Source: Candidatus Parcubacteria bacterium
GTDB taxonomy: Bacteria; Patescibacteriota; Patescibacteriia; UBA1558; GWA2-36-10
DNA: 64,000 bases
Reading direction: 5' to 3'
Assembly (NCBI GenBank): GCA_018669975.1
Contig: JABHSK010000002.1
Span: forward strand, 5,535 to 69,534
The translations under genes were made by a program, and so were the position numbers. Numbering within the stretch: the stretch's first letter is position 1; every line of letters begins with the position of its first letter. This document shows positions 1 to 17,960 of this stretch, one piece after another. Below the pieces are notes generated by a model. That model was not told the origin of the DNA, did not search any database, and saw only the letters and a list, made by a program, of their open reading frames with translations.

Positions 1-16
1 AATTTGTCCTCCATAT

Positions 17-1504
17 TTAAAACCTTAATTTTTTATTCAAATCTGAAATAGCTGTAAATTCTTCAATGGTCAACACCGACTTATCTTTTGATTTATAGTC
101 TTCTATTAAATTAGCCACTTCCTTACCTTGAATCATGCTCTCTTGGCCAAGTTCCAAATATATTTTATACACCTGGCTATTCCTCCAGGCCTCAATACCC
201 TGCGCTTTTTTAGTAAAAGAATCTTTTTCTAATACATTAATTTTATCCAAAATCTTGTCTACCCTATCCTGTACAACATCGCCAAAACGACGAAAGTTGT
301 CCAAAGTTAAAGCCTCTAATTCTTGCACTGGCCCAGTCAACTCATGCTGCACGGGTGAAGCCTGTGGTACAGATTTCAATGTTGGCTCTGGCGTAGGTTT
401 TGGTTTGGTAACTACATCAGAAATTTGCTTTTTATCAAGTGCGCTGGGTCTAAAAACCTTGGGTAAGGGCTCTAAACTTTTTTCAACTACCTCTGGTATA
501 TTTTTTGGTTTAACTTCAGGCTTTGGTTTAACTTCAGGCTTTGGTTTAACTTCAGGCTTTGGTTTAACTTCAGGCTTTGGTTTAACTTCAGGCTTTGGTT
601 TAACTTGTTTTTCCACCTGAACAATCCCCTTCTTCTTTTCTCCTTCCTTGATTAACTCCACTTCTTTAACAGTCTCTATTTTTTCTTCAATTTTTGGTTG
701 CTTTGGAAGAACAATAGGCTCTATTTCAACCTTTGTTTTTACCTGTTTAGATGCTATGGGAGGTTGCTGACTAGGCACGGGCTCAAAGGATGACTTCATT
801 TCCTTAAGAGCTTTTTTTACCTCTTCTTGCGCAGAAGCATCTTCTCCGTCCCCATCTTCAAGCTCTATTCTGCCTCCTGGCTCTACAATTGTATCAACCA
901 TCGCAGCTTGCCTGACCACTAAACCACCCACTGAAAATAGTTTATTTTTTATACCTTTAACGATAGATAAAATATTATCGACAATATCCTTATCTAAGGA
1001 TTTGTTATCCACAGATACCTTAATATACAGCAACTCTCTAACTACTATAGCGCTTTTTCGATCACGAAAAAAATCATAAAGAATGTCAGTAAATTTCTGT
1101 CTATTCACCTCATTAAGCTTCAGATCCTGCTTTTCTATAATCTTATTGACGATTTTATCAATGCTATATTTTTTACTATCGTCTTTTGGTAATACCTTAG
1201 CCAGCTCGTCAAGCTGTTGCTTGTCGTCAGGATGAAAGACTAATTCAGCTGTACTATCAGCCCTACCACCAACATACTCAATTGGCGCAAAACTATCATC
1301 CAATGGCGCTGTATTTATACTCGGAGTGTTAACAACACGTTGTTTATCCTCCTCTTTTTTCGGTATCGGAGTCAATGTAGAACCATCACCTTTTTTCGGC
1401 CCGCTTTGTTTCAAAGGATGCAATTTTCCACCTTGATCTTTTATCAACAAATTATCAGCCCAATTATCTTTAGTTAATATACTTTTATCGTTAGATGTCA
1501 CCAT
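17..1504 (-). CDS. hypothetical Lys/Pro-rich protein with (KPKPEV)x7 repeat block
   Basis: 495-aa ORF; an 18-bp DNA tandem repeat encodes KPKPEV x7; no catalytic motif recognised; start at window edge looks complete. Confidence 0.5.
   Translation of the reverse strand: MVTSNDKSILTKDNWADNLLIKDQGGKLHPLKQSGPKKGDGSTLTPIPKKEEDKQRVVNTPSINTAPLDDSFAPIEYVGGRADSTAELVFHPDDKQQLDELAKVLPKDDSKKYSIDKIVNKIIEKQDLKLNEVNRQKFTDILYDFFRDRKSAIVVRELLYIKVSVDNKSLDKDIVDNILSIVKGIKNKLFSVGGLVVRQAAMVDTIVEPGGRIELEDGDGEDASAQEEVKKALKEMKSSFEPVPSQQPPIASKQVKTKVEIEPIVLPKQPKIEEKIETVKEVELIKEGEKKKGIVQVEKQVKPKPEVKPKPEVKPKPEVKPKPEVKPKPEVKPKNIPEVVEKSLEPLPKVFRPSALDKKQISDVVTKPKPTPEPTLKSVPQASPVQHELTGPVQELEALTLDNFRRFGDVVQDRVDKILDKINVLEKDSFTKKAQGIEAWRNSQVYKIYLELGQESMIQGKEVANLIEDYKSKDKSVLTIEEFTAISDLNKKLRF
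507..606. repeat. 18-bp tandem repeat ggtttaacttcaggcttt x5.5 (in-frame, coding)
   Basis: perfect direct repeats read directly in the sequence; they translate to PEVKPK repeats on the minus strand. Confidence 0.9.
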
Positions 1505-1573: not shown

Positions 1574-1606
1574 AAAAAACCGCCCCCACTTAGTGGGGGC
1601 GGTTTA
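1574..1606 (-). terminator. rho-independent terminator downstream of efp
   Basis: 11-bp perfect stem accgcccccac / gtgggggcggt with 3-nt loop, flanked by A-run/T-run; T-run follows the hairpin on the minus strand. Confidence 0.7.
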
Positions 1607-1617
1607 AATAAATAAAA

Positions 1618-2175: not shown

Positions 2176-2177
2176 GA

Positions 2178-2396: not shown

Positions 2397-2419
2397 ATTA
2401 AAATTATTTTATTGGTCTA

Positions 2420-2890: not shown

Positions 2891-2914
2891 AGTGTTAATT
2901 TAGTTTTTGAACAA

Positions 2915-3400: not shown

Positions 3401-3414
3401 ATTCTATTTAATTA

Positions 3415-3441
3415 CCTTACCCAACATAATTAGAGGTAAGG
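3415..3441 (-). promoter_or_regulatory. 5' leader hairpin of rpsF sequestering an SD-like GGUAAGG (possible S6:S18 autoregulatory element)
   Basis: ccttacc-13nt-ggtaagg inverted repeat 15-40 nt upstream of the rpsF ATG on the minus strand; the purine-rich arm is positioned like a Shine-Dalgarno. Confidence 0.3.
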
Positions 3442-3582
3442 GCCCTGCTCATTGACAAGGCGTGGTTAATCAAATAATATAGTTTTAAAAACCATATTAG
3501 ACTCTCGATACTCTAACATAAATAATAGACAGAGTCAAGTCAGTGTATTGATTAAAAATCACTTTTAAATTATGATATATCT

Positions 3583-4776: not shown

Positions 4777-4841
4777 ATCAAAAAAAATAAAAACCCCACT
4801 CGGAGGTCTAGAAAACACTAGAAAAACGGTGGGTTTTTTTG

Positions 4842-6086
4842 CTATCTAACAACTTCAGATATCCAAGCCAATTGTTTGTCAGCCATGTGAATTTCTCGCC
4901 ACTTGAACTTACCAGTATTCTGATCCAAATAAACTACCTGACCAGAACCTGGAATCAGGTTACTCAAATAAAAAGCTAACACGGTAACATCATCTTTAAT
5001 ATGCATTTTGTCTACCAATATCATCTCAAAAAACAAACGTCTAGCCAACAAATGATCAGTGTTTTTATCTAGCCAGTCTCCCAAGTCATGACTATATCTA
5101 AGGTTAATAAAACGTTTTAGTATATTCCTAAATCTACTATCCTCTTTTAATAAAGCTTCTAGAGCCTTTTTTTCTATCAAAACTTTCAAACAACTACTTA
5201 CCTTATCTTTGTCTTGTAAGCCAATAGCATTCCATAGAATATCCCTGACCTTTGACAAATTATTATTTGCTTCTGACATTATAAAGTCTGCTGGCAACAT
5301 TTTGACCTCTATATCATTGAGTTGCTTATGAAACTTTTTCAAAAGCTTGTCTATATCAACTTTGGTTGTGGGCTTTTCTTCCGAAAACTCAGACACCCTC
5401 AACACCCCAGCTACCAACTCAAACTGTATCTTTATATTATCATCATAGGCTGTGATAAAGTGCCGTAAAGAATCAAGCTCATTTTTACTTAGCTTGGCTA
5501 TATTCGGAGCTTTAGTGAGGTATTTTGAGCGTTGTAGAGCATTATGATAGGCAGCCCCTGAAAAATGTACATAGTCTTTAATCCAATTATCTACCGTCGG
5601 CGCTGTCGTCCTTCCTTCTGGATTAACAATCTTTCTAGACGTCAAACGTAGATCTTTAAAATTGTTATATTTTTTAAGCATCTGCTTGACTGTACCTGCC
5701 TCAAACTCTGGAAAAACTGTCCTTTGCAAAGCTGCTCGCTTTAATCTTTTTAGTCTCGGTACTTTACCACCCAAACGCAAAATCAAACGATCTACATTTT
5801 CTAAATATTCCTGCAGTGGCCATAATATTTCATAGGCAATATCTAGGGTAAGCTTCCTTAAATCACATCGACCTGCCCCTTCCATTTTTTCCAATTTCTT
5901 GGGAAAATCTAAAACAGATATTTTTTTTAAAAATGCCTTGTGCTCTAATTCTAAAATATAATCCAGCTGAACCCTATTAAGAAAAAATTTATTGGATATC
6001 TTAATATTATTTAAGGGAATATCTTCACCATAAATAACATCTTTTACCTCCTCGGGTAATTTGTTTAATGCTGCTGGATTAATCAT
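4842..6086 (-). CDS. hypothetical cytoplasmic protein, last gene of the giant-protein operon
   Basis: 414-aa ORF with no TM segments and no recognised motifs; separated by 36 bp from the upstream membrane-protein gene on the same strand. Confidence 0.5.
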   Translation of the reverse strand: MINPAALNKLPEEVKDVIYGEDIPLNNIKISNKFFLNRVQLDYILELEHKAFLKKISVLDFPKKLEKMEGAGRCDLRKLTLDIAYEILWPLQEYLENVDRLILRLGGKVPRLKRLKRAALQRTVFPEFEAGTVKQMLKKYNNFKDLRLTSRKIVNPEGRTTAPTVDNWIKDYVHFSGAAYHNALQRSKYLTKAPNIAKLSKNELDSLRHFITAYDDNIKIQFELVAGVLRVSEFSEEKPTTKVDIDKLLKKFHKQLNDIEVKMLPADFIMSEANNNLSKVRDILWNAIGLQDKDKVSSCLKVLIEKKALEALLKEDSRFRNILKRFINLRYSHDLGDWLDKNTDHLLARRLFFEMILVDKMHIKDDVTVLAFYLSNLIPGSGQVVYLDQNTGKFKWREIHMADKQLAWISEVVR

Positions 6087-6122
6087 TTATATAAAATAAT
6101 AAACAAAAATAATTAAACATCC

Positions 6123-8813
6123 CTATATTCCACCACCGCCATCAAAGTCATCATCTGCATCAGGAGCAGCACCTGCATCAGGAGCAGCACCTGCACCAGG
6201 AGCAGCACCTGCACCATAACTATTCTCAGCCAATGAGTGACGCATTCTCTCAGTTAGTATATCAGCATCATCCGCTAGTCTATCTAACTGCTCTTTTGGT
6301 AATTGGAGTAACTCTTCTAGCTTAAGATTGCTAACAAACTCATTAAAGGCCTCATCATCTAAAACTGGCCTACCATTTCCATCGACCTGCATATCACCAG
6401 CTGGAGTTACCTCTGCAAAAGCTAAATGGGCATTCTTCATGTTTCCTCGAGCCAGTCTAGTCCTAGCTTCCGCTTGCCTCGCTCTAAATTGATCATTGTT
6501 CTCAGCGCCTGTTTGATTAGGAATATTGTTTATCTCCTGACTAAAATAAGCATTAAGAGCCTCAGGACCCCCGGCATAGGGACTAGTAGCGTCGCTAGCC
6601 ATCATAACCTCTGCATTACCATGCCTTATCTGGCCTGACACCATAACCTCCATCTTCTCTCTATCATTTGTCTTTGACATAAATTCTTTCCTCTGACCAG
6701 CATTCATTAATCCAGACATACTTCTAAGGAAAGTAGAGTCTGCGCCCATTCTAGCTACTTGTTTTCCTGAGATATCCCGACTAGCTGCCGCGGCAAAACT
6801 ATCTCTAAGACTTGTCTGCAATCTATCTCTAGCAGCATCTGCAGCCTGTGCATTCCCTGAGCTAGCCATCTCCCTTCTATGTTCTGCTTCACCTAAATCA
6901 TGACCAATATTACTAAAATGATTCTCGGTATCCGCAGCTCTGCCAAACTGAGAAATAGTAAGCGTCCTTTTATATGCTTCTGAATCTGTATTGATTTGTG
7001 CATTACCATTTTGATCTCTCACTGGGTTACCAGCTGCATCTGTAGTAAACATACTATCAGTTGGTCGAAATTCCCTTAAAGCATTTATCAATGAATTTCT
7101 GTCCTCACTTTCCATACCCTCCATAGCCTTGGCCCTAGTATCATCATCTTGAGCTAATATAGTAGTCATCACTGCTTGATGGTCAGTATTACCAGCATCA
7201 ATACCATCAAAATTCATATTCTTTAAGGTGGCTACTAAACCACTGTCTGCTATATTACGATCCATGGTCTCTTCAGTGTTAACTGAAGCAGCACGCTTCT
7301 GCAAACTTGTACGAGCATCTGCATCACCATATGTTTCAAATAAATCATCCATATTGCCAGCATCTAGAGTTTGACCACCAACAGTCACACTTGTTTCACC
7401 GCGAGCCTGAGCTGCTTTAGCAGCGTGATATTGAGCCTCATCACCACCCTTAGTAGCCCAATATGCTGCCTGATCGGTTACACCTTCTGCACGTGTACCC
7501 TCATACTCAGCTCTGCGCTTCCTGCTACCCTGATCTGCTGCCACTCTACGCATCCCAGCTCTAGTTACCAAGCCGCTAACTCTACCTGCTATACCTCCAC
7601 GGTCTTGCATTTGTTGGCCAGCTTCTGTCATGCTACGACCCGCCATGCCTCGCAATCTACTGAGTTGCCCCTTGATCATTCCCTCACCACTTCTGCCCTG
7701 ATACAAAGTTTTAGCACCAGCTGCCGCACCAGCCTTGACTAGACCACCAGCCTTGCGACCTACCTTGCCAGGAGCTGATTTTATATTAGAAGCCATATTA
7801 CCGGCTATACCAGCACCAGCCGCGCCTGATTTAGCAGTCATCTGCAATCCAGCCACTAAAATAGCTATACCAATAACAAAATTTAATACACTACTTGGTG
7901 CAGCTGCCGCACTAACATCATAAACTGGATGATTATCATCATCTTCACTGTCCCCGGGAACCTCACTGAAACTATCATTTATATTTCCATTTCCCGTAAT
8001 ACTAAAAGCTAGCCATAAAAAGAAAGCTAAACTGGGGCCAGCAATCAAATTCTTAAGCAATTCTTCTGACCATTCATTAAAATATTTTTCAGTTTTAGGA
8101 AAAGTAAAAGCTAAAAAAGCTAAAGGAGATAAAACCAGTAACACCCATAGAGTCACAATCCTCATAGCTAACATGGCCAAAAAGGCTAACACGACCATGA
8201 CTGTTATTAACAACATAATAGCACCCAAGAAATAGGCTACTACCACATTACTTTCAAGGCTTGGACCTGTAGAGTCGCTACCTTTTTGTAAAATATTCTG
8301 CAAACCCAAGGCAGTCATCACATTACCAGCTGCAATATTCTTAATTACAGAGACAAAGGTCAACATAATTACCTGAGAAAAATCAATGGCAATACCAACG
8401 ATAGTTTTACTAAAATTAATCAATACTGCTACTATTAACAATTTTTTCAACAATTGACGGTAACCGTAAGACTGAATTTTTAAAATAGTAGCTAAAGCAA
8501 TCACCAAGAGTATAAGGATGAAAAACATATTACTCAGATCTCGCAAAGCTTCCCAACCAGCTGAAACACCTGCTTCTTGAGTAAAGTTATTATATTCAGC
8601 CACAATAGGCAAAAGCAACAACTCCAATTTTAAAACTTGTGACAGTGGCCAAATAAACAAGCCATAGATAATATTGGCTAATAAATCATCTACAACTGAC
8701 TTTAAACCACCACCAGCATACGCAATACGTGGGGTCGCCAAACTAACAGCCGTAGCCAAGGTTACAAATAATACCCAATATTTACTTTTGATTTTTCTAG
8801 ATAAGATATTCAT
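6123..8813 (-). CDS. polytopic membrane protein, TrbL/VirB6-like N-terminal domain plus ~560-aa Ala/Gly/Arg/Asp-rich C-terminal domain
   Basis: signal peptide (..RIAYAGGG), about 8 predicted TM helices in the first 330 aa with a Gly/Ala-rich segment after the last TM; hydrophilic low-complexity tail ending in (GAGAAPx)3 DDDFDGGGGI; 6-bp gap to the giant gene. Confidence 0.45.
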   Translation of the reverse strand: MNILSRKIKSKYWVLFVTLATAVSLATPRIAYAGGGLKSVVDDLLANIIYGLFIWPLSQVLKLELLLLPIVAEYNNFTQEAGVSAGWEALRDLSNMFFILILLVIALATILKIQSYGYRQLLKKLLIVAVLINFSKTIVGIAIDFSQVIMLTFVSVIKNIAAGNVMTALGLQNILQKGSDSTGPSLESNVVVAYFLGAIMLLITVMVVLAFLAMLAMRIVTLWVLLVLSPLAFLAFTFPKTEKYFNEWSEELLKNLIAGPSLAFFLWLAFSITGNGNINDSFSEVPGDSEDDDNHPVYDVSAAAAPSSVLNFVIGIAILVAGLQMTAKSGAAGAGIAGNMASNIKSAPGKVGRKAGGLVKAGAAAGAKTLYQGRSGEGMIKGQLSRLRGMAGRSMTEAGQQMQDRGGIAGRVSGLVTRAGMRRVAADQGSRKRRAEYEGTRAEGVTDQAAYWATKGGDEAQYHAAKAAQARGETSVTVGGQTLDAGNMDDLFETYGDADARTSLQKRAASVNTEETMDRNIADSGLVATLKNMNFDGIDAGNTDHQAVMTTILAQDDDTRAKAMEGMESEDRNSLINALREFRPTDSMFTTDAAGNPVRDQNGNAQINTDSEAYKRTLTISQFGRAADTENHFSNIGHDLGEAEHRREMASSGNAQAADAARDRLQTSLRDSFAAAASRDISGKQVARMGADSTFLRSMSGLMNAGQRKEFMSKTNDREKMEVMVSGQIRHGNAEVMMASDATSPYAGGPEALNAYFSQEINNIPNQTGAENNDQFRARQAEARTRLARGNMKNAHLAFAEVTPAGDMQVDGNGRPVLDDEAFNEFVSNLKLEELLQLPKEQLDRLADDADILTERMRHSLAENSYGAGAAPGAGAAPDAGAAPDADDDFDGGGGI
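6157..6216. repeat. 18-bp tandem repeat gcatcaggagcagcacct x3.3 (coding, Gly/Ala/Pro-rich C-terminus)
   Basis: direct repeats read in the sequence at the 3' end of CDS 6123..8813. Confidence 0.85.
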
Positions 8814-8819
8814 ATATTT

Positions 8820-11800
8820 TTAATCTTTATGTACTTGTATCCAACCCTCATACTCTTTAATAGTAGAAGTAGTCCAATTGTCAAAAATTTCTATAATAGG
8901 TTTAAAACAAGAGGCATCTGCTACGCTAGGAACAGTGTAGACATTACCGTTTATAGTAGTAGTCGCACCGTCACATGGGAATAATGGATTGTATAAATAT
9001 TGGTTATACAAAACCTTATAACCTTCATGGCAAGCACCTTCAGTACCACCAAAACCTTGCCAGCTTCCCAATATACCTGGCATGTCTGATTCTGGATTAC
9101 AGAGTGGCAAATTATTTTTGTATTTACCATAATAACTACTTGGCACACCGCCATCACCCCAATCCATAACAATATCTCTAACCGGCATATGATCAGGATG
9201 AGCATGATAATAAAATTTAGCGGCTGCAAACAATGAGCTCTCCTGACTAACTATACTACCGCCATTGGAATTATTTATGGTAAAGCCCTCTTCGGGTATT
9301 CCATTTGAATCAATACAAAGTCCATTTCCACAAACTCTAAGAATACGCGGTTTAGAATAGGTATTACCAACCTGTGGTCTAGCAGAGGTGGACATATTAT
9401 GAGTGTCTATATAACTAGCCTGGTTATACAAACCAAGTGAATTAGACGGCATTCTCAATGAGTACATTTGTCTAAATAAGTAAGCAAAACTGTCCATAGT
9501 GTCCCACCAGCGATAAAAAGCACAGCTAGCATTTACACATCTAGCACTTGATTCATTCGTCCAATTACCAATGGGTCCCGGACTCATAAAAATAGCTGTT
9601 CTATCATAGAAATTATTAGTAAAAGGCTCCAATGGTAACATCACTTGAACTTGAAGATCTGTGCCAAATCTTGAAATAGGACTAACCGATGCACCAAAAG
9701 CATAACCTATAGACGTGGTAGCTCTTTCTATGTCTGAATTAGGAATAAACGGTGGAGTAACCGTAGGAGTCAAAATATAGTCATAATGTAATTCTGACCA
9801 CCATGAGTTGACAGTCACTCCTGGCGCATAAATATCATCAGAACTAGCTAAATAAGCTGAACGATCTTGCAAGTACGCCGGTGAAGTACTAGGGCTACCA
9901 TGCCAGAATGTAAACTCTGTATGAGGTAAAGTGTAGTTATAATTTTCTGGCTTTGATGCCCACCAAACATCAGTATTGACTATAGCATTGTCACCCAGAG
10001 GATCTACCTCCATCAATCTATTACAACGTTGGTAACAACCCTTGCCGTTTATATTTGCATTACAATCATCACCAGCTCTAGTTGAACCATACCCAGGAGG
10101 AGTTAATACACCGCCAAAGACATACATATTAAAATCTAGCGGATTACAAACATTGTACGGGAAAGCACCACCAGTGATATGAGCATAGTGATAATTTGGC
10201 ACACAAGCCACTGTAGTAGTAACAGAAGATGGTAATGATAAAAATTGATTCACATTAGTTGAACTATAAGCGCCTGTTCCAGATACACCCTCATCTAAAT
10301 AGTAGTACTCAATAGTAGCATCATACAATCTCTGTAATCGAGCCATAGTAACTCCATAGCTAGCGGCTGGCGCGTTTACAAAATCTTCGGGCTCAAATAA
10401 AGCGCGACTATCAACTCTAGGTCCAGGAGCACTACTATCATTTATATGGTTAACACCATTATTTTTTACAATCACATCCATACCTATTGGCCCAGGCAAT
10501 CCACCTGGCACATCAGTAGCTTCATACCTGGTAAATACATCTTTAAGATAATAATTTGTCAACAAATCCCTCAAAGTAATATCACCCGGGTCATCTAGTG
10601 CATCAGCATTAATCAGAGATCCAGTTGGAATCCTTAATAATAACGTACAATTACCACCCGGGCCACTATCACCACTAGCAGCACAATAATATCTATCTCT
10701 AGGAATTATATAAGGATTAGTAAAAGCACACATTTGTATATAATTTCCATAGGGGTCAGTATAACCAGCAGAATCATAATTATTATATAGACCCTGTGTA
10801 GAATTAATCTTGGTAATTGGATACCACAGATTACAATAGTTTGCTCTAGAATCTATATCTGAAACAATGCCAGAATATTTATCTTGTTCATAACAAATAC
10901 CTGGTAAATTAAGATTAGTCTCAATCTTTGTCATTGGCTCACATCTACCGCCAAGATACAAAAGACGCGAAGCATCTCCATCACAATTCATATGAGCATT
11001 ACATGGTGAGCCAATATAAGGACTAGTCACAAACTCTGAAGAACCATCCTCATGTATTATTTCATAGGCTTCGGCAGCATCAATAGCGCTTGTACCACTA
11101 AGTGTCGATACACAAACACCAGTGTAATAATCCTTGTCTGTTGGATAATAAGCAGTGTAAGTACCGTTTCCATAGGTAATCTTATTGTAAGAATCCTCAC
11201 AACCATCCTCCCAAGCATCACACAAACCATCTGCGTCAATGTCTAAGCAGGTACCGTCAGCTATAACACTCTCACAAATACTAGCATTACCGTAGCCAGG
11301 CCTTCTCTCTCTAATTTCCCTACCTGCAATACTAGTACCTGTATCCTGCGATATGCTCTGCGGAAAAGGAGAATCTGGTACTGCATAGCCCTTGGTAGTT
11401 AACCCTATATAATATGATTGGTTAGTATAATCTGGACTCAACCAACAAATCTCATCTTTACAAATACCAGTATTAATCCACTGGTAATAACCCATATGAC
11501 TAATACCATCTTCTGGGAAAGCCATACAGAATTGTCCGTTAGTAAGAGGTATACCATCAGCAGTATAGTTACTAGTTTCACAACTAGTTGTCGTACTGTG
11601 CACTCTATACATCAATCTTAGATCGATGTCTTCATTATCACCAAAATTATAAACTTCTAAATCTTTGGCTGGCAATAGGTTTGGAGCTGCATAACCAACA
11701 TAGTCTTTATCTGCCCACTGCAAGTGACTATTGTTTCCTGATACTCTATATTGGTAAACGGAAGTTGTCAGTGGGGTACTAGAAGTATAAGTATCCCAAT

Positions 11801-14800
11801 TGCCACACTTGGTGACACTACCTCGTTTATCATATTCAGTACAACTAGAAATATCATCACAGAGCACATCATATTGTTGTGTATCTGGATTAAATTCACT
11901 AGAGGATGACTTACATGCCAACCATTCAGCACATTGCCTACTCTTGTTTACCTTGATAATTGTATTAGCATTACAACCCACGTCACCATTAGCACAAATA
12001 TCTGGGTTAACTGGTTTATCAAAATATACATTCTTATTATAAGTAGTAGAAGCATTGTACAAAGAATCTACGCCTGCGTGTCCTGAACCCCAATTATTAG
12101 TGTCATAGAAAAGCATACAACCACTATTTCTATCCACATCAACACAACTCTTATAATCTATATTATTATTATCAAAATAATGATAATTCTTACATGACAC
12201 ACCGTTTATCCATTCTCCACCGCCAGTCGCATTCATTATTAAAACACACGTCATACCACCCACACCAGCATAGACAGCACCAGTACCGTCAACACAAGCG
12301 ACAGTATCTCCATCTTTAAGTCTTGGATCACAGCCAGGCGGGTCAAAAGGATCTTTAAATGTAGTACATAGGTTAGCTGTCTCTGGACACTCCGCTGCCC
12401 AACGATCTGGCTGGAAATCAACTATGTAATCTAAATACTCAAAATCAGATTGATCAAAATTAAAGTCCCCGTTATCACTACAACCTATCGGATCTATACC
12501 ATCTCCCAATGTATGAGTTTGGAACCAACCAGTAAATGGCACATACTGACCAGAAAGCATCCTAACATGATTATTTTCACGAAAGGAACAAGTCTTATTA
12601 CCTGGATCCTTAAAGTAATAAGTACCTTTAGACGAACCATAGGTTTCACAATCTAATGCTTCAGATACACATAGAGTATTCTCATATTGATCTGGATCAT
12701 TAAATTTATAAACCGTACTAAAGCCAGTAATCGCGTTGGCATTAGCCTTGTCTACTTTTGGTAGCCCAAGCTCCGAACAACCCTTAAACTGTTGCGGACA
12801 ATATTTGGATCTATCTGGTACCAAATAATCTAAACTATCTCTTGACACAGTAATCTCTGCTGGTTCTGGAGGCACTTCTAGATTAAAGGTTTCTTCAAAA
12901 GGATTGGTAGAATTATGTGTATCAATCACCGCCATACAACCTATCTTGTCTTCTCCACAAAGTTTTTCAAATGATTTTAAGTTATATAATGAGCCGTTCC
13001 TATCCCGATAAGCTTGGCAACCTAAATGAAAGGCAGAATAAGGACTATCGCAGGAAGCCGGCGTGCTCCAGGTATCTTTCCTTACATAAATATGATCTGT
13101 CACTTCACGCAAGGTGACGTTGTCAAAATAGACACTATCAACTCCATTGAATGTAAATGTTAATCCAGTCGTGGTGAAATCAAAATTTAAAATATCCTCT
13201 TCTGTAATAGCCACTGTATAAGGATGCCAATCACCACCTTGTATATTATTAAAGCTAGCAATCAGCGTGCTCGTGGCCATACTACCAATAGTAACGTCTA
13301 GTGTTGTTAAATTACTATTATTTCGCAGCCACCATGACAACTCATATTCTCTATTTCCTTGTAGCTGATTGGATAAATCACGATCAACACTTGTGTTTAC
13401 AGCATTGAGTTGCAACTTCATTGAATGTCCTTCATTCATAACAGATTCATTGGACATATCCAACGATCCCCAAAATGTTACCCAAGGATCATAGGTGCCT
13501 TCTTCAAAAGTGTCAGAAAGTATAGTTCTTAGATTATTTCCAGTATTACCCTTGTAGGCACGACAACCACCACTTTGTTCTCCACACTCTTCACTTAAAC
13601 TAGGAATAGCACTATACAATGCACCAGTTAAAGTACGGCGATAAGTATGACAATCATCACTAGCAAATATAACTCTGTCCTGCAGGCGCCAATAAGAATC
13701 TCCGTTGGTGTCAAAAAACTCTCTACAATTCGGATTATTTTCTGGATCATCTAATATAGTAGCTGTTTCTGGACCACAAGCAGCCATAGGGAAATTTCCA
13801 TTTGTAGCAGGTGCATCATCAATACATAAAATTCCGCCCCGTTGTACATTAGTACAAGGTGGTTGACCTTTACCAGCTATTGTCCGATTACTCTCTAAAG
13901 TATGCCAAGTTTTAATCTGATAACCAGATACGTCTTGACCTTCCCAAGTATAATAAGTGATTCCTAAATCATCAGCCACACATTGACGCAAATATGAAAA
14001 ATATTCTTTACCTTCACCGCCATCAGCCACCTCATCTAGGTTAGTGAACTCTTCGCAGCCAGCTTCTGAAGCTGGGCAAGTCTCGGCTGTATCAGGTATA
14101 AAATTATAATAATTAACTGCGTAATCTCCCTCGATATTATCAAAAATTGTGGTTTGTTCCGCAAAAGAAGCATAACCAACACACTCCTGAGGGCATAGAT
14201 CATCCTGTGAAATCACTGCTGGCACCATTGGTCCACCAGCTACTGGTCTATATGCCTGGCAACCAACCTCATCTTCACTACACATGATTCTCTCGCCACC
14301 CATATAGATAGTACTACCAACTCCATACTCGGAGTATGGCGTAGCACTCATACCTTCTTGGCTAACTATTTCTAATTTAATATTATCAAACCACATAGCT
14401 GAAGGAGCAGCACCATTTGGATTAACACCACCATAAGACATTACATCTATTCGCCCTCCACTAGTATTTTCATCTGTCATAAACAGACAACCAGCCCTTA
14501 ACCAACTAAAATCACTCGGTGGCACAAATCTCAAATCCGCATTATTTGGATGACCACTACCACCAAGTAAACAAGTACCAGTGCTTGTTGCTGGTCTTGC
14601 ATTATTTGTCGCACCGTTACAGTCGCCAGTCATATCACATAATTGTACAGCTACACGTGCTCCATAATCAGCTGGCGCCACATATTGAGCAGCATCAGCT
14701 GATATAATATAATATGTATTTGGCAGTAACTCCACATTCATCTGCAATACTTCTTCTGCATAAGGCTCTGTATTCCAATTACTTGCTCCCCAAGTATAAC

Positions 14801-16973
14801 CATTTGCTACTTTATTATTGTCATAATCAGCAGTAAAACCATTGCTTGGAGTCCCATTACTTGTTCTTGTCCAACCGTCTGGAGTATTAGTAGCAGTACC
14901 ATCATCATGAAAATTATTAAAACTACCATTTGGTACCAAGTTTACTCCTAGGTCAGGAACCATAACTATATACTCTGAACAATCAGCATAAGTTGAATCA
15001 CACTCAGAAGTATTTAAAAATAAATCATCTTCATTTAAAGTGAATAGGGTTGGATCCAGTGTCATATCCTCTTCCATAAACCAATCACCAGCTGCATCTC
15101 TAGTCTGTGAATACCGCTTACAGCCAGACTCCTCAGCTGTACAATATTCCAAAGTGCCCTCTATATAGCCCTTTGTACCTAAATCAGCGTTGTCAAAAAC
15201 TAAACAACCTGAATAAATGTCCCCATCGTCACACATGTCACCGTTGAAGCGCCAAATATTTTCACTTCTGGTGCAGTATCCATATTGTCCTTCTAGACAA
15301 TTACCACTTTCATCTTCTCGTAGACATGTCTGTGGATCAGCACAATATTCTTGACGACTGCTTCCATCTGAAGATTCTAAAGCTGGTCCATAAACCATAG
15401 CATTACATCTAGTTGGTGGTGCTCTTAGCACCCAATCTGGATCAACTAAATGATAAAATGGATTGTGATGATTATCATAAGTTGGATCAATTCCATATTC
15501 ACAAGATCCACCATCTTCAAAACAATTAATAACCTCTTCTACAGTCACCGCCTTATCAGCTACACGCTGAGCAGCTAACTCCATACCAACTGGAAAAATA
15601 TTAGCTTTCCTTAATTTAACTAAATCTCTATAACACAGGCCTGATTTGAAACAATCTTTATTTTCATTATCTGGATTATTCGGTCCTATGATTGGTAAAT
15701 CACCATCCAAGAGTCCATCATCAATGGCACTCCTAAGAGTTTCTTGATTAGAAACGGCCAACATTAAATTGGTGTCGATGACACAATTATCTAATGCCCG
15801 ATAATCTTTTTGTGCTGGACAAATAGCAAAATCTTGCAAAAACGTCCAATCCTCTACTGGTGTTAACTCTGTCGCTTTTAAATCTGAAAATACATTACCT
15901 ACACTCCATAATTCGTCTATATCTACACAACCACCCAAAGCACATGCTACCGTTGGTTTGATACCTGGATTTTTCTCTAGTTCACTTGCTGGAGGATTGA
16001 TAATATTCATACCCTCTTCAAACGCCCGCTTCATCAACTTTGAAGACAAAGTAGATACAAACATATTACCAGCTTCAGCTAAAATAGCTGACAAAGTACC
16101 TCCTTCGGCATTTTCAAAAAAAGCGAACTGATCCCCAGCAATAGCCGCATCCCATTGAGCCTCGTTCATGTTCATAATATCTGTACAGCCAGTCTTTACG
16201 TCTCCTGAGATAGTTGTCTTTGAGTCCAAATAACCCTTACACATCTCAAGAAACATTGCTTTATGTGCTGCAGCCATAGCACCAGTTTTACTCACCTCTT
16301 CCCTTATTCTATCTCTTTGACCTAAATAGGTTTGTTCATATCCAAATAAAGCTATAAAAGCGTCATCAAAATCAGCTCTTTTGTAGTTTGGTGTAATAGT
16401 CAGACTATCTTTAACATAGTTAGCCCAGTTTCTACCATACAATGAATCACTAAAATTACTCCAATTCTCTTTAATTGCTGAAAAGTCACACTTCGGTGCT
16501 GGCGGCTCTTCAGAATCTAAAATATCTAGAGTTAGGCTAAGTTGCAAATCTAAACTTGGGTTACATAAATCTATGCCTAAGCTAGCCAAGGTCTCTCCAT
16601 TTGACCCCGCAGACTGCATTAGGCCACCTATAAACTCACCCTTTGCTGCATCTGCTGCTCTATGTGTAGCACTTTCTCTTGGTTTAGTATCATAGAGTGA
16701 TTTTTTACCAGAGCCTGACTCTGATATACTAGTAGCTAAATCATAGGCCAGATTATTCATAAACATTCTAGCCGTATCAACTGCCACCTTATGAATCATA
16801 CCCTCCCAAACACCTGCTAATATACCCTGAAGTCTTTCCCAGCCCCATTTTGCTCCATTAACAGTAACTACGCCAGGGGAAAAAGCCTGGACAGGTTTTG
16901 GTTTTGCCAACAAGGGTCCGACAACCATCAATGACAGTACAATCACGATTATCGCTCTTTTGTAATTGTTCAT
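8820..16973 (-). CDS. giant secreted Cys-rich protein (2717 aa) with CBM4/9-like and PKD-like segments
   Basis: N-terminal signal peptide (IIVIVLSLMVVGPLLAKPKPVQAFS); about 100 Cys; Asn/Gly/Thr/Tyr/Asp-rich; NGSFNNFHDDG...PDGWT and FEEGTYDPW segments resemble CBM_4_9 beta-sandwich starts; MDWGDGGV resembles the PKD WDFGDG motif; uninterrupted 8.15-kb ORF. Confidence 0.8.
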   Translation of the reverse strand: MNNYKRAIIVIVLSLMVVGPLLAKPKPVQAFSPGVVTVNGAKWGWERLQGILAGVWEGMIHKVAVDTARMFMNNLAYDLATSISESGSGKKSLYDTKPRESATHRAADAAKGEFIGGLMQSAGSNGETLASLGIDLCNPSLDLQLSLTLDILDSEEPPAPKCDFSAIKENWSNFSDSLYGRNWANYVKDSLTITPNYKRADFDDAFIALFGYEQTYLGQRDRIREEVSKTGAMAAAHKAMFLEMCKGYLDSKTTISGDVKTGCTDIMNMNEAQWDAAIAGDQFAFFENAEGGTLSAILAEAGNMFVSTLSSKLMKRAFEEGMNIINPPASELEKNPGIKPTVACALGGCVDIDELWSVGNVFSDLKATELTPVEDWTFLQDFAICPAQKDYRALDNCVIDTNLMLAVSNQETLRSAIDDGLLDGDLPIIGPNNPDNENKDCFKSGLCYRDLVKLRKANIFPVGMELAAQRVADKAVTVEEVINCFEDGGSCEYGIDPTYDNHHNPFYHLVDPDWVLRAPPTRCNAMVYGPALESSDGSSRQEYCADPQTCLREDESGNCLEGQYGYCTRSENIWRFNGDMCDDGDIYSGCLVFDNADLGTKGYIEGTLEYCTAEESGCKRYSQTRDAAGDWFMEEDMTLDPTLFTLNEDDLFLNTSECDSTYADCSEYIVMVPDLGVNLVPNGSFNNFHDDGTATNTPDGWTRTSNGTPSNGFTADYDNNKVANGYTWGASNWNTEPYAEEVLQMNVELLPNTYYIISADAAQYVAPADYGARVAVQLCDMTGDCNGATNNARPATSTGTCLLGGSGHPNNADLRFVPPSDFSWLRAGCLFMTDENTSGGRIDVMSYGGVNPNGAAPSAMWFDNIKLEIVSQEGMSATPYSEYGVGSTIYMGGERIMCSEDEVGCQAYRPVAGGPMVPAVISQDDLCPQECVGYASFAEQTTIFDNIEGDYAVNYYNFIPDTAETCPASEAGCEEFTNLDEVADGGEGKEYFSYLRQCVADDLGITYYTWEGQDVSGYQIKTWHTLESNRTIAGKGQPPCTNVQRGGILCIDDAPATNGNFPMAACGPETATILDDPENNPNCREFFDTNGDSYWRLQDRVIFASDDCHTYRRTLTGALYSAIPSLSEECGEQSGGCRAYKGNTGNNLRTILSDTFEEGTYDPWVTFWGSLDMSNESVMNEGHSMKLQLNAVNTSVDRDLSNQLQGNREYELSWWLRNNSNLTTLDVTIGSMATSTLIASFNNIQGGDWHPYTVAITEEDILNFDFTTTGLTFTFNGVDSVYFDNVTLREVTDHIYVRKDTWSTPASCDSPYSAFHLGCQAYRDRNGSLYNLKSFEKLCGEDKIGCMAVIDTHNSTNPFEETFNLEVPPEPAEITVSRDSLDYLVPDRSKYCPQQFKGCSELGLPKVDKANANAITGFSTVYKFNDPDQYENTLCVSEALDCETYGSSKGTYYFKDPGNKTCSFRENNHVRMLSGQYVPFTGWFQTHTLGDGIDPIGCSDNGDFNFDQSDFEYLDYIVDFQPDRWAAECPETANLCTTFKDPFDPPGCDPRLKDGDTVACVDGTGAVYAGVGGMTCVLIMNATGGGEWINGVSCKNYHYFDNNNIDYKSCVDVDRNSGCMLFYDTNNWGSGHAGVDSLYNASTTYNKNVYFDKPVNPDICANGDVGCNANTIIKVNKSRQCAEWLACKSSSSEFNPDTQQYDVLCDDISSCTEYDKRGSVTKCGNWDTYTSSTPLTTSVYQYRVSGNNSHLQWADKDYVGYAAPNLLPAKDLEVYNFGDNEDIDLRLMYRVHSTTTSCETSNYTADGIPLTNGQFCMAFPEDGISHMGYYQWINTGICKDEICWLSPDYTNQSYYIGLTTKGYAVPDSPFPQSISQDTGTSIAGREIRERRPGYGNASICESVIADGTCLDIDADGLCDAWEDGCEDSYNKITYGNGTYTAYYPTDKDYYTGVCVSTLSGTSAIDAAEAYEIIHEDGSSEFVTSPYIGSPCNAHMNCDGDASRLLYLGGRCEPMTKIETNLNLPGICYEQDKYSGIVSDIDSRANYCNLWYPITKINSTQGLYNNYDSAGYTDPYGNYIQMCAFTNPYIIPRDRYYCAASGDSGPGGNCTLLLRIPTGSLINADALDDPGDITLRDLLTNYYLKDVFTRYEATDVPGGLPGPIGMDVIVKNNGVNHINDSSAPGPRVDSRALFEPEDFVNAPAASYGVTMARLQRLYDATIEYYYLDEGVSGTGAYSSTNVNQFLSLPSSVTTTVACVPNYHYAHITGGAFPYNVCNPLDFNMYVFGGVLTPPGYGSTRAGDDCNANINGKGCYQRCNRLMEVDPLGDNAIVNTDVWWASKPENYNYTLPHTEFTFWHGSPSTSPAYLQDRSAYLASSDDIYAPGVTVNSWWSELHYDYILTPTVTPPFIPNSDIERATTSIGYAFGASVSPISRFGTDLQVQVMLPLEPFTNNFYDRTAIFMSPGPIGNWTNESSARCVNASCAFYRWWDTMDSFAYLFRQMYSLRMPSNSLGLYNQASYIDTHNMSTSARPQVGNTYSKPRILRVCGNGLCIDSNGIPEEGFTINNSNGGSIVSQESSLFAAAKFYYHAHPDHMPVRDIVMDWGDGGVPSSYYGKYKNNLPLCNPESDMPGILGSWQGFGGTEGACHEGYKVLYNQYLYNPLFPCDGATTTINGNVYTVPSVADASCFKPIIEIFDNWTTSTIKEYEGWIQVHKD

Positions 16974-17013
16974 ATTTTTATTTTCAATAATTTATTATGA
17001 TTATTTTATATAA

Positions 17014-17829
17014 TTACTCCTCTGTACTCTGATTATCTTCTTCGCTGATACCCAATAATTGAAAGCCTATTGATATCAACTCCTGATCCGTCATTTGATT
17101 AATTCTCTCTTTGTCAGCACCAGGCTGTGCCAATAAAAAATTTCTGACTTCTTCTGAGCTGACTTCTTCTGATTGCTCTGAAGCAGCCATGTTTTCAGAA
17201 ACAATTTTAAAAAGCATCAACAAATCTTCGTCTGACAGTTTATTTACTTCCTCTTGAGGCATGCCACTCTCTATCAAAATCCTTCTAAAATCTGTGGCGA
17301 TGGCACCTTGCAAGGTCAAATCCTCATCCAATTTAACATCTTCTATAACTTCTACAAGTCTAGTTTTTGGAGTAATTAAAGCCAATAAACTACAATCCTC
17401 TCCTTCTGGACATAGTGGATCAGCGCCAGAACTAACTTCATCAAAATCTGATACGCCATCGCTATCTGTATCATCTATAAAGATACTAGTGTAATACTGG
17501 TACATCTCCTGATAATCAGTCAGACCATCTTGATCTGTATCTCTTTCTTGTAATTCAGCAATAGTCACTTGAGCATCCCCCTGTTCTTGTAATTGCTCCT
17601 CCAGCCAATCGGGCCTCTCATAGGCTACTGGACCAGCTATATTTCCATACAAATACCAAAAAGAAAAAGCGACAATTGCCAATCCTAATATAATAAATAA
17701 TAAAACATGCTTCTTGTCACTTTGATTTTCTTGTAGAGATCTATTGATATCCTCTGCTGAGTATCCTTCTAGCTCGTCGGACAATCCATCCTCTGTGAAC
17801 TCATCTAGTTTGTGTAACTTTTTTTTCAT
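17014..17829 (-). CDS. membrane-anchored protein with TSP3-like calcium-binding repeats (first gene of operon)
   Basis: single TM (LLFIILGLAIVAFSFWYLY) after a charged N-terminus; DTDQDGLTDYQE and DTDSDGVSDFDE..GADPLCP match the thrombospondin type 3 DxDxDGxxDxxD(NCP) pattern. Confidence 0.6.
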   Translation of the reverse strand: MKKKLHKLDEFTEDGLSDELEGYSAEDINRSLQENQSDKKHVLLFIILGLAIVAFSFWYLYGNIAGPVAYERPDWLEEQLQEQGDAQVTIAELQERDTDQDGLTDYQEMYQYYTSIFIDDTDSDGVSDFDEVSSGADPLCPEGEDCSLLALITPKTRLVEVIEDVKLDEDLTLQGAIATDFRRILIESGMPQEEVNKLSDEDLLMLFKIVSENMAASEQSEEVSSEEVRNFLLAQPGADKERINQMTDQELISIGFQLLGISEEDNQSTEE

Positions 17830-17854
17830 TAATAGAGTCGATTAAATTATGTTT

Positions 17855-17863
17855 ATTATAACA
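17855..17863 (-). promoter_or_regulatory. extended -10 element (TGTTATAAT) for the 17829->4842 operon
   Basis: minus-strand TGnTATAAT about 30 nt upstream of the start codon at 17829; no good -35. Confidence 0.3.
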
Positions 17864-17960
17864 TATTTTTATGAAAAAACCAAAACATAAAAACAAAATA
17901 ATCTACATATTTTGTTTAACTGTTTAAAAGATAGGTCTTTATAAAAAACTTATATAAATT

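What the first reader, a model, noticed from the sequence alone, without database searches (positions are those of the whole stretch)
4842..17829. Four-gene operon built around a 2717-aa cysteine-rich secreted giant protein and a TrbL/VirB6-like polytopic membrane protein
Minus-strand genes 17829->17014 (TM + TSP3-like Ca-binding repeats), 16973->8820 (giant secreted protein), 8813->6123 (896-aa membrane protein) and 6086->4842 (cytoplasmic 414 aa) are separated by 40, 6 and 36 bp with one upstream promoter region. The giant protein has a signal peptide, about 100 Cys, two CBM4/9-like starts (NGSFNNFHDDG..PDGWT; FEEGTYDPW) and a PKD-like DWGDGG motif. None of the four has an obvious enzymatic signature. 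The arrangement (huge Cys-rich carbohydrate-binding exoprotein + dedicated multi-TM partner + Ca-binding anchor + cytoplasmic component) looks like a dedicated surface/host-attachment or export apparatus of unknown type. It takes up 20% of the window.
Basis: partly seen in the sequence, partly recalled or inferred. Interest (0 to 1): 0.8.

Follow-up and report, generated by a model that had tools for sequence, protein, structure and literature searches.

The report
Giant lectin-like exoprotein beside T4SS VirB6
The four genes are real and are inherited together, but they are not an unknown apparatus: they are the VirB6 half of the type IV secretion system already known in ultra-small Patescibacteria, joined to a huge disulfide-rich sugar-binding surface protein that the papers I searched do not connect to that system.

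Summary
All four minus-strand ORFs exist exactly as described, with gaps of 40, 6 and 36 bp. The giant protein has 96 Cys.

The 896-aa protein is an extended TrbL/VirB6. An identical contig from the same organism shows PrgI (VirB3), TrsD and a VirB4 ATPase starting just off the window's left edge.

In 81 related Patescibacteria loci the block recurs as a module: TSP3 anchor, giant protein, VirB6, p414-like protein. In some lineages it is contiguous with the p495-PrgI-TrsD-VirB4 genes. In others, including this one, housekeeping genes separate the two.

So this is the VirB6 module of the published Gram-positive-like Patescibacteria T4SS, not a new apparatus.

Three partners look undescribed:
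- The giant protein belongs to a family of about 1,300 clusters. It has a Sec signal, 67 conserved Cys and two CBM-type beta-sandwiches.
- The second is a Ca-binding membrane anchor.
- p414 is cytoplasmic and gives a confident model with no solved-structure counterpart. Its N-terminal domain is shared with the p495 family.

My best reading is that the giant protein is the system's host-binding surface component. This rests on gene linkage only, and housekeeping ksgA is just as tightly linked.

The parts
17830..17960 (-). AT-rich spacer between ksgA and the first gene. It holds an extended -10 (TGTTATAAT, 17863-17855) and is the candidate promoter of the block.
   Evidence: The sequence was read directly. 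One weak consensus hit lies at 17875-17846. Promoter-like hits in the region as a whole are at chance level.
17014..17829 (-). 271-aa membrane-anchored acidic protein. It has a short basic N-terminus inside the cell and one TM segment (aa ~41-63). Outside it has two TSP3-type Ca-binding repeats (DTDQDGLTDYQE, DTDSDGVSDFDE), a conserved CPxGxDC loop and an acidic helical tail.
   Evidence: Pfam TSP3_bac scores 24.8 bits against a cut-off of 25. Orthologues sit directly upstream of the giant gene in all loci whose upstream flank reaches that far.
8820..16973 (-). 2717-aa Sec-exported, disulfide-rich giant protein. Layout: signal peptide (aa 1-31); conserved helical N-terminal region (aa ~32-440); Cys-rich core with at least 10 C-x6-C-x2-[YF] hairpin motifs; CBM-type beta-sandwiches at aa ~680-890 and 1151-1257; a variable region at aa ~1800-2550; a conserved C-terminal ~170 aa.
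   Evidence: Supported. 67 of the 96 Cys are conserved in at least 80% of 24 homologues down to 24% identity. The family has 1,333 representative clusters, mostly 2,400-3,700 aa.
6123..8813 (-). 896-aa extended TrbL/VirB6-type polytopic membrane protein. It has a signal-like N-terminus (AYA|GG) and about 8 TM segments within aa 50-330. A highly conserved external loop carries AEYNNFT..GW..LRDL.NMFF. The hydrophilic tail of about 570 aa (aa 328-896) is predicted to be cytoplasmic and ends in a GAGAAP repeat.
   Evidence: Pfam TrbL scores 21.6 bits here and 27.7-32.6 bits in homologues. 7 of 38 N-terminal domains match TrbL. Topology comes from hydropathy and the positive-inside rule. Relatives occur in at least 536 species-level genomes.
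4842..6086 (-). 414-aa cytoplasmic, mostly helical multi-domain protein ('p414'). It always follows VirB6. Its N-terminal ~90 aa form a module shared with the p495 family of other lineages.
4791..4809 (-). Terminator-like hairpin followed by a T-run, 33 nt after the p414 stop codon. It is the likely end of the transcription unit.
17..1504 (-). 495-aa Lys/Pro-rich protein ('p495') with a KPKPEV tandem repeat. It is the first gene of the second T4SS module and directly precedes PrgI/VirB3 in every relative where both were detected.
   Evidence: Supported. The repeat lies at 504-606. Its copy number differs in an otherwise identical contig.
1..14 (-). The first 14 nt (ATGGAGGACAAATT) of the PrgI/VirB3-like gene, which runs off the left edge of the window. 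TrsD-like and VirB4-like genes follow it in the same organism.
   Evidence: The sequence was read directly. L085 is 100% identical to window 1-16086 and continues with PrgI (Pfam E 4e-10), a TrsD-like protein (NCBIfam E 1e-8) and VirB4 (P-loop_TraG E 5e-28).

Best explanation

Shown here:
- The 896-aa protein is an extended VirB6.
- The four genes form a conserved unit: TSP3 anchor, giant protein, VirB6, p414.
- In this organism that unit lies about 5 kb from 'module 2' (p495, PrgI/VirB3, TrsD, VirB4).
- The two modules are contiguous in other lineages.

Inferred:
- The four genes are transcribed together, from the AT-rich spacer at ~17,860 to the hairpin at ~4,800.
- VirB6 forms the membrane platform. 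Its ~570-aa tail sits in the cytoplasm.
- p414 is a non-enzymatic helical adaptor that docks on that tail or on the ATPase complex. It uses an N-terminal module that it shares with the p495 family.
- The giant protein is exported by Sec and stiffened by about 30-45 disulfides. It is held at the membrane by its conserved N-terminal region, through VirB6's conserved outer loop and/or the Ca-binding TSP3 anchor.
- The giant protein reaches through the wall and binds glycans on a host cell with its two CBM-type domains. In this way it positions the secretion channel at the host surface. This would be the job done by PrgB-type adhesins or by VirB2/VirB5 pili in other T4SSs.
- The variable region (aa ~1800-2550) would set host specificity.
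For: Identity of the VirB6-like protein:
- Homologues at 37% identity pass Pfam's TrbL cut-off over the same segment.
- 7 of 38 N-terminal domains match TrbL.
- Source names include 'type IV secretion system protein' and 'TrbL/VirB6'.

T4SS context:
- The same organism carries PrgI, TrsD and VirB4 just past the window edge.
- Contiguous VirB6-p414like-p495-PrgI-TrsD-VirB4-p190 clusters occur in Falkowbacteria-, Magasanikbacteria- and Uhrbacteria-type loci.

Module conservation:
- Of 47 loci with at least 9 kb upstream of VirB6, 39 have a giant homologue upstream. In 18 of them it is directly adjacent, with gaps of -52 to +72 bp.
- In some lineages TSP3-giant-(small TM protein)-VirB6-(~330 aa protein) persists with no VirB4 within 8 kb.
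- In the reverse test, three giant homologues at only 25-26% identity all sit in TSP3-giant-...-VirB6 order.

Giant protein as a surface lectin:
- It has a signal peptide.
- It has 67 conserved Cys.
- CBM_4_9 is found in 10 of 15 members.
- A second CBM-type sandwich appears in the model.

p414:
- The model is confident but matches no enzyme fold.
- Its N-terminal module is homologous to the p495 family.

Literature:
- The T4SS is essential for epibiotic growth of Southlakia and lacks a recognisable relaxase and coupling protein (PMC10633639).
- Patescibacteria T4SS loci show no PrgB-like adhesin, and ksgA is common near virB4 (PMC12102498).
Against: The link between the giant protein and the T4SS rests on gene order only.
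- The housekeeping gene ksgA is just as faithfully adjacent to the TSP3/giant pair. General genome collinearity in these small genomes could therefore explain part of the linkage.
- In 8 of 47 loci no giant homologue lies within 10 kb upstream of VirB6. In many others unrelated genes intervene.
- The Southlakia T4SS locus has no such giant protein.
- The N-terminal region of the giant protein could not be modelled with confidence (pLDDT 30-60). It has no PDB sequence relative. No physical contact with VirB6 or the TSP3 protein has been shown.
- Sugar binding is inferred from fold and HMM only.
- Co-transcription is inferred from spacing only.
Confidence: 0.6

Rival explanations
1. The giant protein and the TSP3 anchor are an independent cell-surface system, such as a general adhesin, an envelope or S-layer-like scaffold, or a glycan-harvesting lectin. 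They merely sit next to VirB6 because gene order is strongly conserved in these reduced genomes. Only VirB6 and p414 belong to the T4SS.
For: - ksgA, a housekeeping gene, is as tightly syntenic with TSP3 and the giant gene as VirB6 is.
- In many loci tRNA synthetase, lipoprotein and other genes lie between the giant gene and VirB6. In 8 of 47 loci the giant gene is not within 10 kb.
- The giant protein uses Sec, not the T4SS.
- Large Cys-rich extracellular proteins have been reported in CPR genomes; the paper I read makes no link to a T4SS (PMC4736985).
Against: - Gaps of 6 bp or small overlaps between the giant gene and VirB6 occur in 18 loci, which suggests translational coupling.
- The TSP3-giant-VirB6-p414like unit stays together when it is separated from VirB4, and when its flanking genes differ.
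- Giant homologues at 25% identity still precede VirB6.
Confidence: 0.28
2. The four genes are a self-contained export or attachment apparatus of unknown type, in which the polytopic membrane protein is the dedicated transporter of the giant protein.
For: The four genes are tightly packed and co-conserved. In some lineages the module stands alone, with no VirB4 within 8 kb.
Against: - The giant protein has a standard Sec signal peptide.
- The membrane protein belongs to TrbL/VirB6. No VirB6 that I know of works as a stand-alone exporter.
- VirB3, TrsD and VirB4 are 5 kb away in this organism and contiguous elsewhere.
Confidence: 0.06
3. The locus is a conjugative or integrative mobile element whose T4SS transfers DNA. 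The giant protein would then be its mating adhesin.
For: The system is related to Gram-positive conjugation machinery, with PrgI, TrsD, VirB4 and VirB6 (PMC12102498). An SSB gene lies between the two modules.
Against: - The SSB gene is part of the ordinary rpsF-ssb-rpsR operon.
- No relaxase or coupling protein was found among the window ORFs of at least 100 aa scanned with Pfam.
- The locus keeps the same chromosomal housekeeping context across many species.
- GC content is unremarkable across the window.
- Relaxases are rare in Patescibacteria T4SS loci (PMC12102498).
Confidence: 0.03
4. The giant protein is a polymorphic toxin or bacteriocin-like effector with a variable toxic C-terminal part.
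For: It is very large and secreted, and its second half is much more variable than its first.
Against: - The variable part is internal (aa ~1800-2550). The last ~170 aa are conserved.
- No toxin, protease or nuclease domain was detected in 15 members.
- No small immunity-like gene follows. VirB6 follows directly.
Confidence: 0.03

Closest known systems
Patescibacteria (CPR) chromosomal T4SS. It is exemplified by Southlakia epibionticum SEML1_0006-0019 (Wang et al. 2023, PMC10633639) and surveyed by Quinonero-Coronel et al. 2025 (PMC12102498).
   Same: Both have PrgI/VirB3, a TrsD-like protein, a VirB4 ATPase and one or more extended VirB6 proteins of ~900-1100 aa with long hydrophilic tails. 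Both are chromosomal, have no relaxase or coupling protein nearby, and lie near ksgA.
   Different: - The Southlakia locus has an array of VirB2-like pilins, lysozyme-like proteins and an NTF2/VirB8-like protein, but no giant Cys-rich protein.
- Here no T4SS pilin was detected in the window or next to VirB4.
- Here VirB6 is preceded by a 2717-aa lectin-like exoprotein and a TSP3 anchor, and followed by p414.
- The survey paper reports no adhesin and does not mention these three families.
Gram-positive conjugative T4SS of the MPF-FATA class, such as pCF10 Prg/Pcf (PrgH=VirB6, PrgI=VirB3, PrgJ=VirB4, PrgB adhesin) and pCW3 Tcp (TcpH extended VirB6). The component details are from my own knowledge and from PMC12857230.
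   Same: It has the same core set for a single-membrane cell. TcpH is a VirB6 with a large cytoplasmic C-terminal domain. A large surface protein provides contact with the target cell.
   Different: - PrgB is ~1300 aa and LPxTG-anchored. The giant protein here is twice that size, has 96 Cys and CBM-type domains, and has no LPxTG.
- It has no sequence match to any solved structure.
- No relaxase or T4CP is present.
- The locus is chromosomal and vertically conserved.
VirB5/VirB2 pilus-tip and stalk components, which sit on the VirB6 pentamer in Gram-negative T4SS (R388 structure 7o3v; from my own knowledge and PMC12857230).
   Same: The gene immediately upstream of virB6 encodes a Sec-exported protein. 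Its N-terminal part is predicted to be helical.
   Different: No homology could be shown. The N-terminal model has low confidence and the profile search against the PDB is empty. The sizes differ by a factor of ten.
Large cysteine-rich extracellular proteins of CPR bacteria (Peregrinibacteria/Peribacteria; Anantharaman et al. 2016, PMC4736985).
   Same: They are large (~1,655 aa on average), secreted and Cys-rich, and were proposed to act in attachment.
   Different: That paper makes no link to a T4SS. Those proteins are richer in Cys (about 7%) and have other annotations (FG-GAP, Myxococcus Cys-rich repeat). Homology to the present family was not tested.
CBM4/CBM9/CBM16/CBM22 carbohydrate-binding modules.
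   Same: Pfam CBM_4_9 scores above its cut-off at aa 1151-1257. The structure model of aa ~680-890 matches CBM16, CBM4 and CBM22.
   Different: No glycoside hydrolase domain is attached, and ligand-binding residues were not examined. The two regions are not significantly similar to each other (hhalign probability 16%).

Membership tests
TrbL/VirB6 (Pfam PF04610) | An HMM score above the curated cut-off over the polytopic region. | tested here: inconclusive
   The window protein scores 21.6 bits against a cut-off of 25.9 (E 2e-4). Homologues sharing 37-38% identity score 30.5, 32.6 and 27.7 bits over the same positions. 7 of 38 N-terminal domains match at E<=0.01, the best at 3.6e-8. Membership is therefore supported by transitivity, not by this protein's own score.
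TrbL/VirB6 (Pfam PF04610) | A polytopic inner-membrane protein with at least 5 TM helices and a cytoplasmic C-terminus. | tested here: met
   Hydropathy shows about 8 hydrophobic segments within aa 50-330. The tail begins with 10 K/R in 60 residues, which places it inside by the positive-inside rule. No dedicated topology predictor was available.
TrbL/VirB6 (Pfam PF04610) | Similarity to a solved VirB6 structure (TrwI, 7o3v). | tested here: not met
   A single-sequence search gives TrwI as the top hit, but at E 0.23. A profile of the N-terminal domain finds nothing in the PDB. HMMER sensitivity is probably the limit. No structure model of this protein was made.
Patescibacteria MPF-FATA-like T4SS locus | A VirB4-family ATPase encoded nearby. 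| tested here: met
   L085 is 100% identical to window 1-16086. It encodes a 639-aa protein with P-loop_TraG (E 5e-28), AAA_10 and DUF87, ~7.9 kb from the VirB6 stop and about 5 kb from the end of the block. The same arrangement is seen in relatives.
Patescibacteria MPF-FATA-like T4SS locus | PrgI/VirB3 and a TrsD-like protein directly upstream of VirB4. | tested here: met
   PrgI PF12666 scores E 4.4e-10. TrsD NF041427 scores E 1e-8. The PrgI start codon lies at window positions 14-12.
Patescibacteria MPF-FATA-like T4SS locus | No relaxase and no VirD4-type coupling protein next to the cluster. | tested here: met
   Pfam scans of the window ORFs of at least 100 aa that I submitted, and of the L085 genes after VirB4, show none. 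The rest of the genome was not examined.
CBM_4_9 carbohydrate-binding module (PF02018) | An HMM score above the cut-off. | tested here: met
   aa 1151-1257 score 28.5 bits against a cut-off of 25.9. 10 of 15 family members match, the best at 5.6e-10.
CBM_4_9 carbohydrate-binding module (PF02018) | A beta-jelly-roll fold for the first proposed module (aa ~680-890). | tested here: inconclusive
   Foldseek gives E 2e-6 to CBM16, CBM4 and CBM22, with target TM up to 0.74. The model is only pLDDT 60-87 in that stretch and 54 overall. There is no HMM hit.
CBM_4_9 carbohydrate-binding module (PF02018) | Actual carbohydrate binding. | not testable with these tools
   This needs glycan arrays or binding assays.
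PKD domain | An HMM match to a PKD family. | tested here: not met
   No PKD hit appears at E<=1 in the window protein or at E<=0.01 in 15 homologues. Only the DWGD...FxHxY...VxDNWG pattern is conserved.
Bacterial TSP3 Ca-binding repeat (PF18884) | Repeats of the DxDxDGxxDxxE type. | tested here: met
   Two repeats are read directly, DTDQDGLTDYQE and DTDSDGVSDFDE. The HMM score is 24.8 bits against a cut-off of 25, which is borderline.
LPxTG-anchored Gram-positive T4SS adhesins (PrgB type) | A C-terminal LPxTG sorting signal with a TM segment and a charged tail. | tested here: not met
   There is no LP.[TSA]G motif and no C-terminal hydrophobic segment. The protein may work like an adhesin, but it is not a member of this family.

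The most novel reading that the evidence does not exclude
The giant Cys-rich protein family (about 1,300 clusters, no annotation) is an integral extracellular part of a T4SS. It would be a 2,500-3,700-aa disulfide-braced, lectin-tipped stalk that docks on VirB6 with the help of a Ca-binding anchor. It would take the place of the pilus or adhesin in this branch of Patescibacteria, and form or guide the physical bridge to the host cell. Tube-like conduits of about 60 nm have been seen by cryo-ET between a patescibacterium and its host, with no genes assigned to them (PMC11880426). p414 and p495 would then be a new pair of cytoplasmic adaptors that share one docking domain.
Probability: 0.35. Interest if true: 0.75.

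Novelty: new variant of a known kind. Interest (0 to 1): 0.55.

Why it matters
Patescibacteria make up a large share of bacterial diversity and appear to live attached to other microbes. In the one species where genetics has been done, the T4SS is essential for growth on the host. What it transports and how it reaches the host are both unknown.

This analysis identifies a conserved three-protein accessory set next to VirB6 in a large non-Saccharibacteria branch. The set is a giant lectin-like exoprotein, a Ca-binding anchor and a cytoplasmic adaptor. That gives concrete candidates for the host-recognition and bridging step. It also provides a large unannotated protein family (about 1,300 clusters at 50% identity) whose variable region could be compared with host range.

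The analysis also shows that these T4SS loci are built from two modules that housekeeping genes can separate. Neighbourhood surveys centred on virB4 can miss this.

Tried and rejected
- PDB sequence searches. The giant protein and p414 give nothing. VirB6 gives only TrwI at E 0.23.
- Profile of full-length VirB6 homologues against the PDB. Only low-complexity artefacts from the tail appeared, such as SNF5 and dynactin. I discarded these.
- Profile of the VirB6 N-terminal domain alone. No hits.
- Profile of the giant N-terminal 450 aa. No meaningful hit.
- AF2 model of giant aa 1-900 with 24 sequences. Mean pLDDT was 54. The helical N-terminal 400 aa could not be used, so the idea that it is VirB5-like could not be tested.
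- The afdb50 fold library was not available.
- PKD domain. Not confirmed.
- Internal duplication of the two CBM-like regions. Not significant.
- Promoter scan. Chance level, so it cannot be used as evidence.
- NCBIfam. Nothing for the giant protein, VirB6, p414 or p495.
- The N-terminal module shared by p414 and the p495 family is absent from this lineage's own p495 (hhalign probability <1%). The shared-domain argument therefore holds between families, not within this genome.
- The first homologue search with the full giant protein returned only 24 hits because of the candidate cap. The exhaustive search later corrected this.
- Cluster look-ups of ten distant giant homologues returned no names.
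- The mobile-element and polymorphic-toxin readings were considered and rejected. See the rival explanations.
Full report
OBSERVATION. The gaps between them are 40, 6 and 36 bp. The window has about 36% GC, and its gene content is typical of Patescibacteria/CPR. A protein 100% identical to p414 is named 'Candidatus Parcubacteria bacterium' by NCBI. The flanking genes are housekeeping. Upstream on the same strand are ksgA, MFS, sua5 and leuS. Downstream are a methyltransferase on the other strand, rpsF-ssb, efp and a 495-aa ORF.

The giant protein has one N-terminal hydrophobic segment, 96 Cys and no LPxTG motif. Pfam finds a single CBM_4_9 domain at aa 1151-1257. The 896-aa protein gives a sub-threshold TrbL hit. 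The 271-aa protein has TSP3 repeats. p414 matches nothing. Promoter-like matches are at chance level (50 against 49.0 +/- 6.2). An extended -10 does lie in the upstream spacer, and a hairpin with a T-run lies 33 nt after the last stop codon.

WHAT THE MEMBRANE PROTEIN IS. It has more than 349 homologues, almost all from Patescibacteria MAGs and 750-1400 aa long. The conserved part is the N-terminal ~350-aa polytopic domain. Homologues at 37-38% identity pass Pfam's TrbL/VirB6 cut-off over the same segment, at 30.5, 32.6 and 27.7 bits. Of 38 isolated N-terminal domains, 7 match TrbL. Hydropathy and charge place the ~570-aa hydrophilic tail in the cytoplasm. That is the 'extended VirB6' architecture. 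Southlakia has two such proteins of 1,088 and 998 aa.

THE MISSING T4SS GENES ARE JUST OFF THE WINDOW. In three relatives the order is ksgA, TSP3 protein, giant (2,723-2,940 aa), VirB6, a 414-419-aa protein, (methyltransferase), S6, SSB, S18, EF-P, a ~440-510-aa protein, PrgI, a TraC-like protein, a VirB4-type ATPase.

Contig L085 is 100% identical to window 1-16086, apart from the copy number of one 18-bp repeat. It continues past the left edge with four more genes:
- PrgI (Pfam E 4e-10)
- a TrsD-like protein (NCBIfam E 1e-8)
- a 639-aa VirB4 homologue (P-loop_TraG E 5e-28)
- a 184-aa TM protein

The PrgI start codon is at window positions 14-12. The window's ORF at 17-1504 (p495) is therefore the first gene of a second T4SS module.

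CO-CONSERVATION. A scan of one genome per species found at least 536 genomes with a VirB6 relative. I kept 80 loci and compared them with all window proteins. They fall into three arrangements.
- (A) About 28 loci look like the window, with housekeeping genes between p414 and p495.
- (B) In loci named Falkowbacteria, Magasanikbacteria and Uhrbacteria, the genes (small TM protein)-VirB6-p414like-p495-PrgI-TrsD-VirB4-p190 are contiguous. TSP3 and the giant gene lie 0.6-6 kb upstream in most of them.
- (C) ksgA-TSP3-giant-(small TM protein)-VirB6-(~330-aa protein) is followed by metabolic genes, with no VirB4 within 8 kb.

Of 47 non-redundant loci with at least 9 kb upstream of VirB6, 39 carry a giant homologue there and 18 have it directly adjacent. 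I also ran the test in reverse, starting from giant homologues at only 25-26% identity. All three gave TSP3-giant-...-VirB6. These 80 loci are the best-scoring matches, so the fractions describe this branch and not all Patescibacteria.

THE GIANT PROTEIN. An exhaustive search with aa 380-1560 finds 1,333 representative clusters at 50% identity. Of these, 1,124 have E<=1e-30, and most are 2,400-3,700 aa. None of those I looked up carries a name.

Conservation is highest over aa 1-1750 and in the last ~170 aa. The region aa ~1800-2550 is variable. 67 of the 96 Cys are conserved in at least 80% of 24 homologues down to 24% identity. A C-x6-C-x2-[YF] hairpin motif recurs at least ten times. Only CBM_4_9 is recognised by HMM, in 10 of 15 members, and no PKD domain is found.

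An AF2 model of aa 1-900 is poor overall (pLDDT 54). Its better-modelled beta-sandwich at aa ~680-890 matches CBM16, CBM4 and CBM22. The helical N-terminal ~400 aa remain uninterpretable.

These are weak and generic. They fit a protein-binding adaptor, not an enzyme.

Its N-terminal ~90 aa are homologous to the proteins that occupy the post-VirB6 position in other lineages (hhalign E 2e-10). They are also homologous to the N-terminus of the p495 family of those lineages (E 1.9e-7; E 1.8e-16 between the two families in group B). This lineage's own p495 lacks the module.

COMPARISON WITH WHAT IS KNOWN. The Patescibacteria T4SS has been published. In Southlakia it is essential for epibiotic growth, and it lacks a recognisable relaxase or coupling protein (PMC10633639). 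A 2025 survey showed that it forms a clade related to MPF-FATA systems. That survey found VirB3, TrsD and VirB6 near virB4 and ksgA frequently nearby. It reported that no PrgB-like adhesins were detected (PMC12102498). Neither paper, nor a 2025 T4SS review, mentions a giant Cys-rich protein, a TSP3 anchor or the p414 family. Full-text searches for such a link found nothing. Large Cys-rich exoproteins have been noted in CPR genomes; the paper I read on them does not mention a T4SS (PMC4736985).

INTERPRETATION. The following are shown:
- the ORFs exist as described;
- the membrane protein belongs to the VirB6 family;
- VirB3, TrsD and VirB4 lie close by in the same organism;
- the locus is built from two modules;
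- the four-gene module is conserved.

The following are inferred:
- the four genes are co-transcribed;
- the VirB6 tail is cytoplasmic;
- p414 acts as an adaptor;
- the giant protein is a Sec-exported, disulfide-braced, glycan-binding surface component that brings the T4SS channel to the host.

The main caveat is that the link between the giant protein and the T4SS rests on synteny. Housekeeping ksgA is equally syntenic, the giant gene is not always adjacent to VirB6, and Saccharibacteria lack it. I therefore give 0.6 to the overall explanation and about 0.35 to the stronger claim that the giant protein is an integral structural part of the machine.

VERDICT. Novelty: new variant of a known kind. 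Interest: 0.55.

Noticed in passing
window 504-606 (inside ORF 17-1504, minus strand): A perfect 18-bp tandem repeat (5.7 copies) encodes KPKPEV units in p495. An otherwise 100%-identical contig (L085) has four units fewer, so the repeat varies in copy number within the population.
   Followed up: partly
window 21798-24632 (minus strand): This leucyl-tRNA synthetase (944 aa) carries a NUDIX hydrolase domain (PF00293, aa 383-490, E 5e-13) inserted after the editing domain. That is an unusual fusion.
   Followed up: no
window 4842-6086, and loci L032-L082 (genes after VirB6 and before PrgI): An N-terminal helical module of about 90 aa (LPxE[VL][KR]... motif) is shared by the p414 family and, in other lineages, by the p495 family that precedes PrgI (hhalign E 1.9e-7 to 1.8e-16). 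It matches no Pfam or NCBIfam model and may be a common docking domain.
   Followed up: partly
window 54118-57250 (minus strand): Three adjacent genes encode a DsbD-type TM domain fused to thioredoxin-like domains (556 aa), a secreted thioredoxin (153 aa) and a DUF3179 protein. This is an extracytoplasmic thiol-redox set that could serve the 96-Cys exoprotein. A DsbA-like gene lies near the homologous locus L088.
   Followed up: no
window 26197-27876 (minus strand), beside 27895-28908: A second TSP3_bac repeat protein (559 aa, E 6e-10) sits next to a Na+/Ca2+ exchanger gene. Together with the TSP3 anchor, this hints at calcium-dependent surface proteins in this organism.
   Followed up: no
loci L032-L082, immediately upstream of VirB6 (e.g. 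L082:9240-9950): In lineages where the giant gene is not adjacent, a small protein of 150-400 aa always precedes VirB6. It has an acidic, disordered N-terminus (M..DEQL..RS) and 1-3 TM segments. It has no Pfam hit and no equivalent in the window's lineage.
   Followed up: partly
window 6155-6213 (3' end of the VirB6-like gene): An 18-bp tandem repeat (3.3 copies) encodes the GAGAAP/DAGAAP low-complexity C-terminus of the VirB6-like protein.
   Followed up: no
loci L007, L010, L011 and many others (record titles): Many GenBank MAG records that carry this typical Patescibacteria locus are titled 'uncultured Gammaproteobacteria bacterium', and one 'Planctomycetota'. These look like mislabelled submissions.
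   Followed up: no
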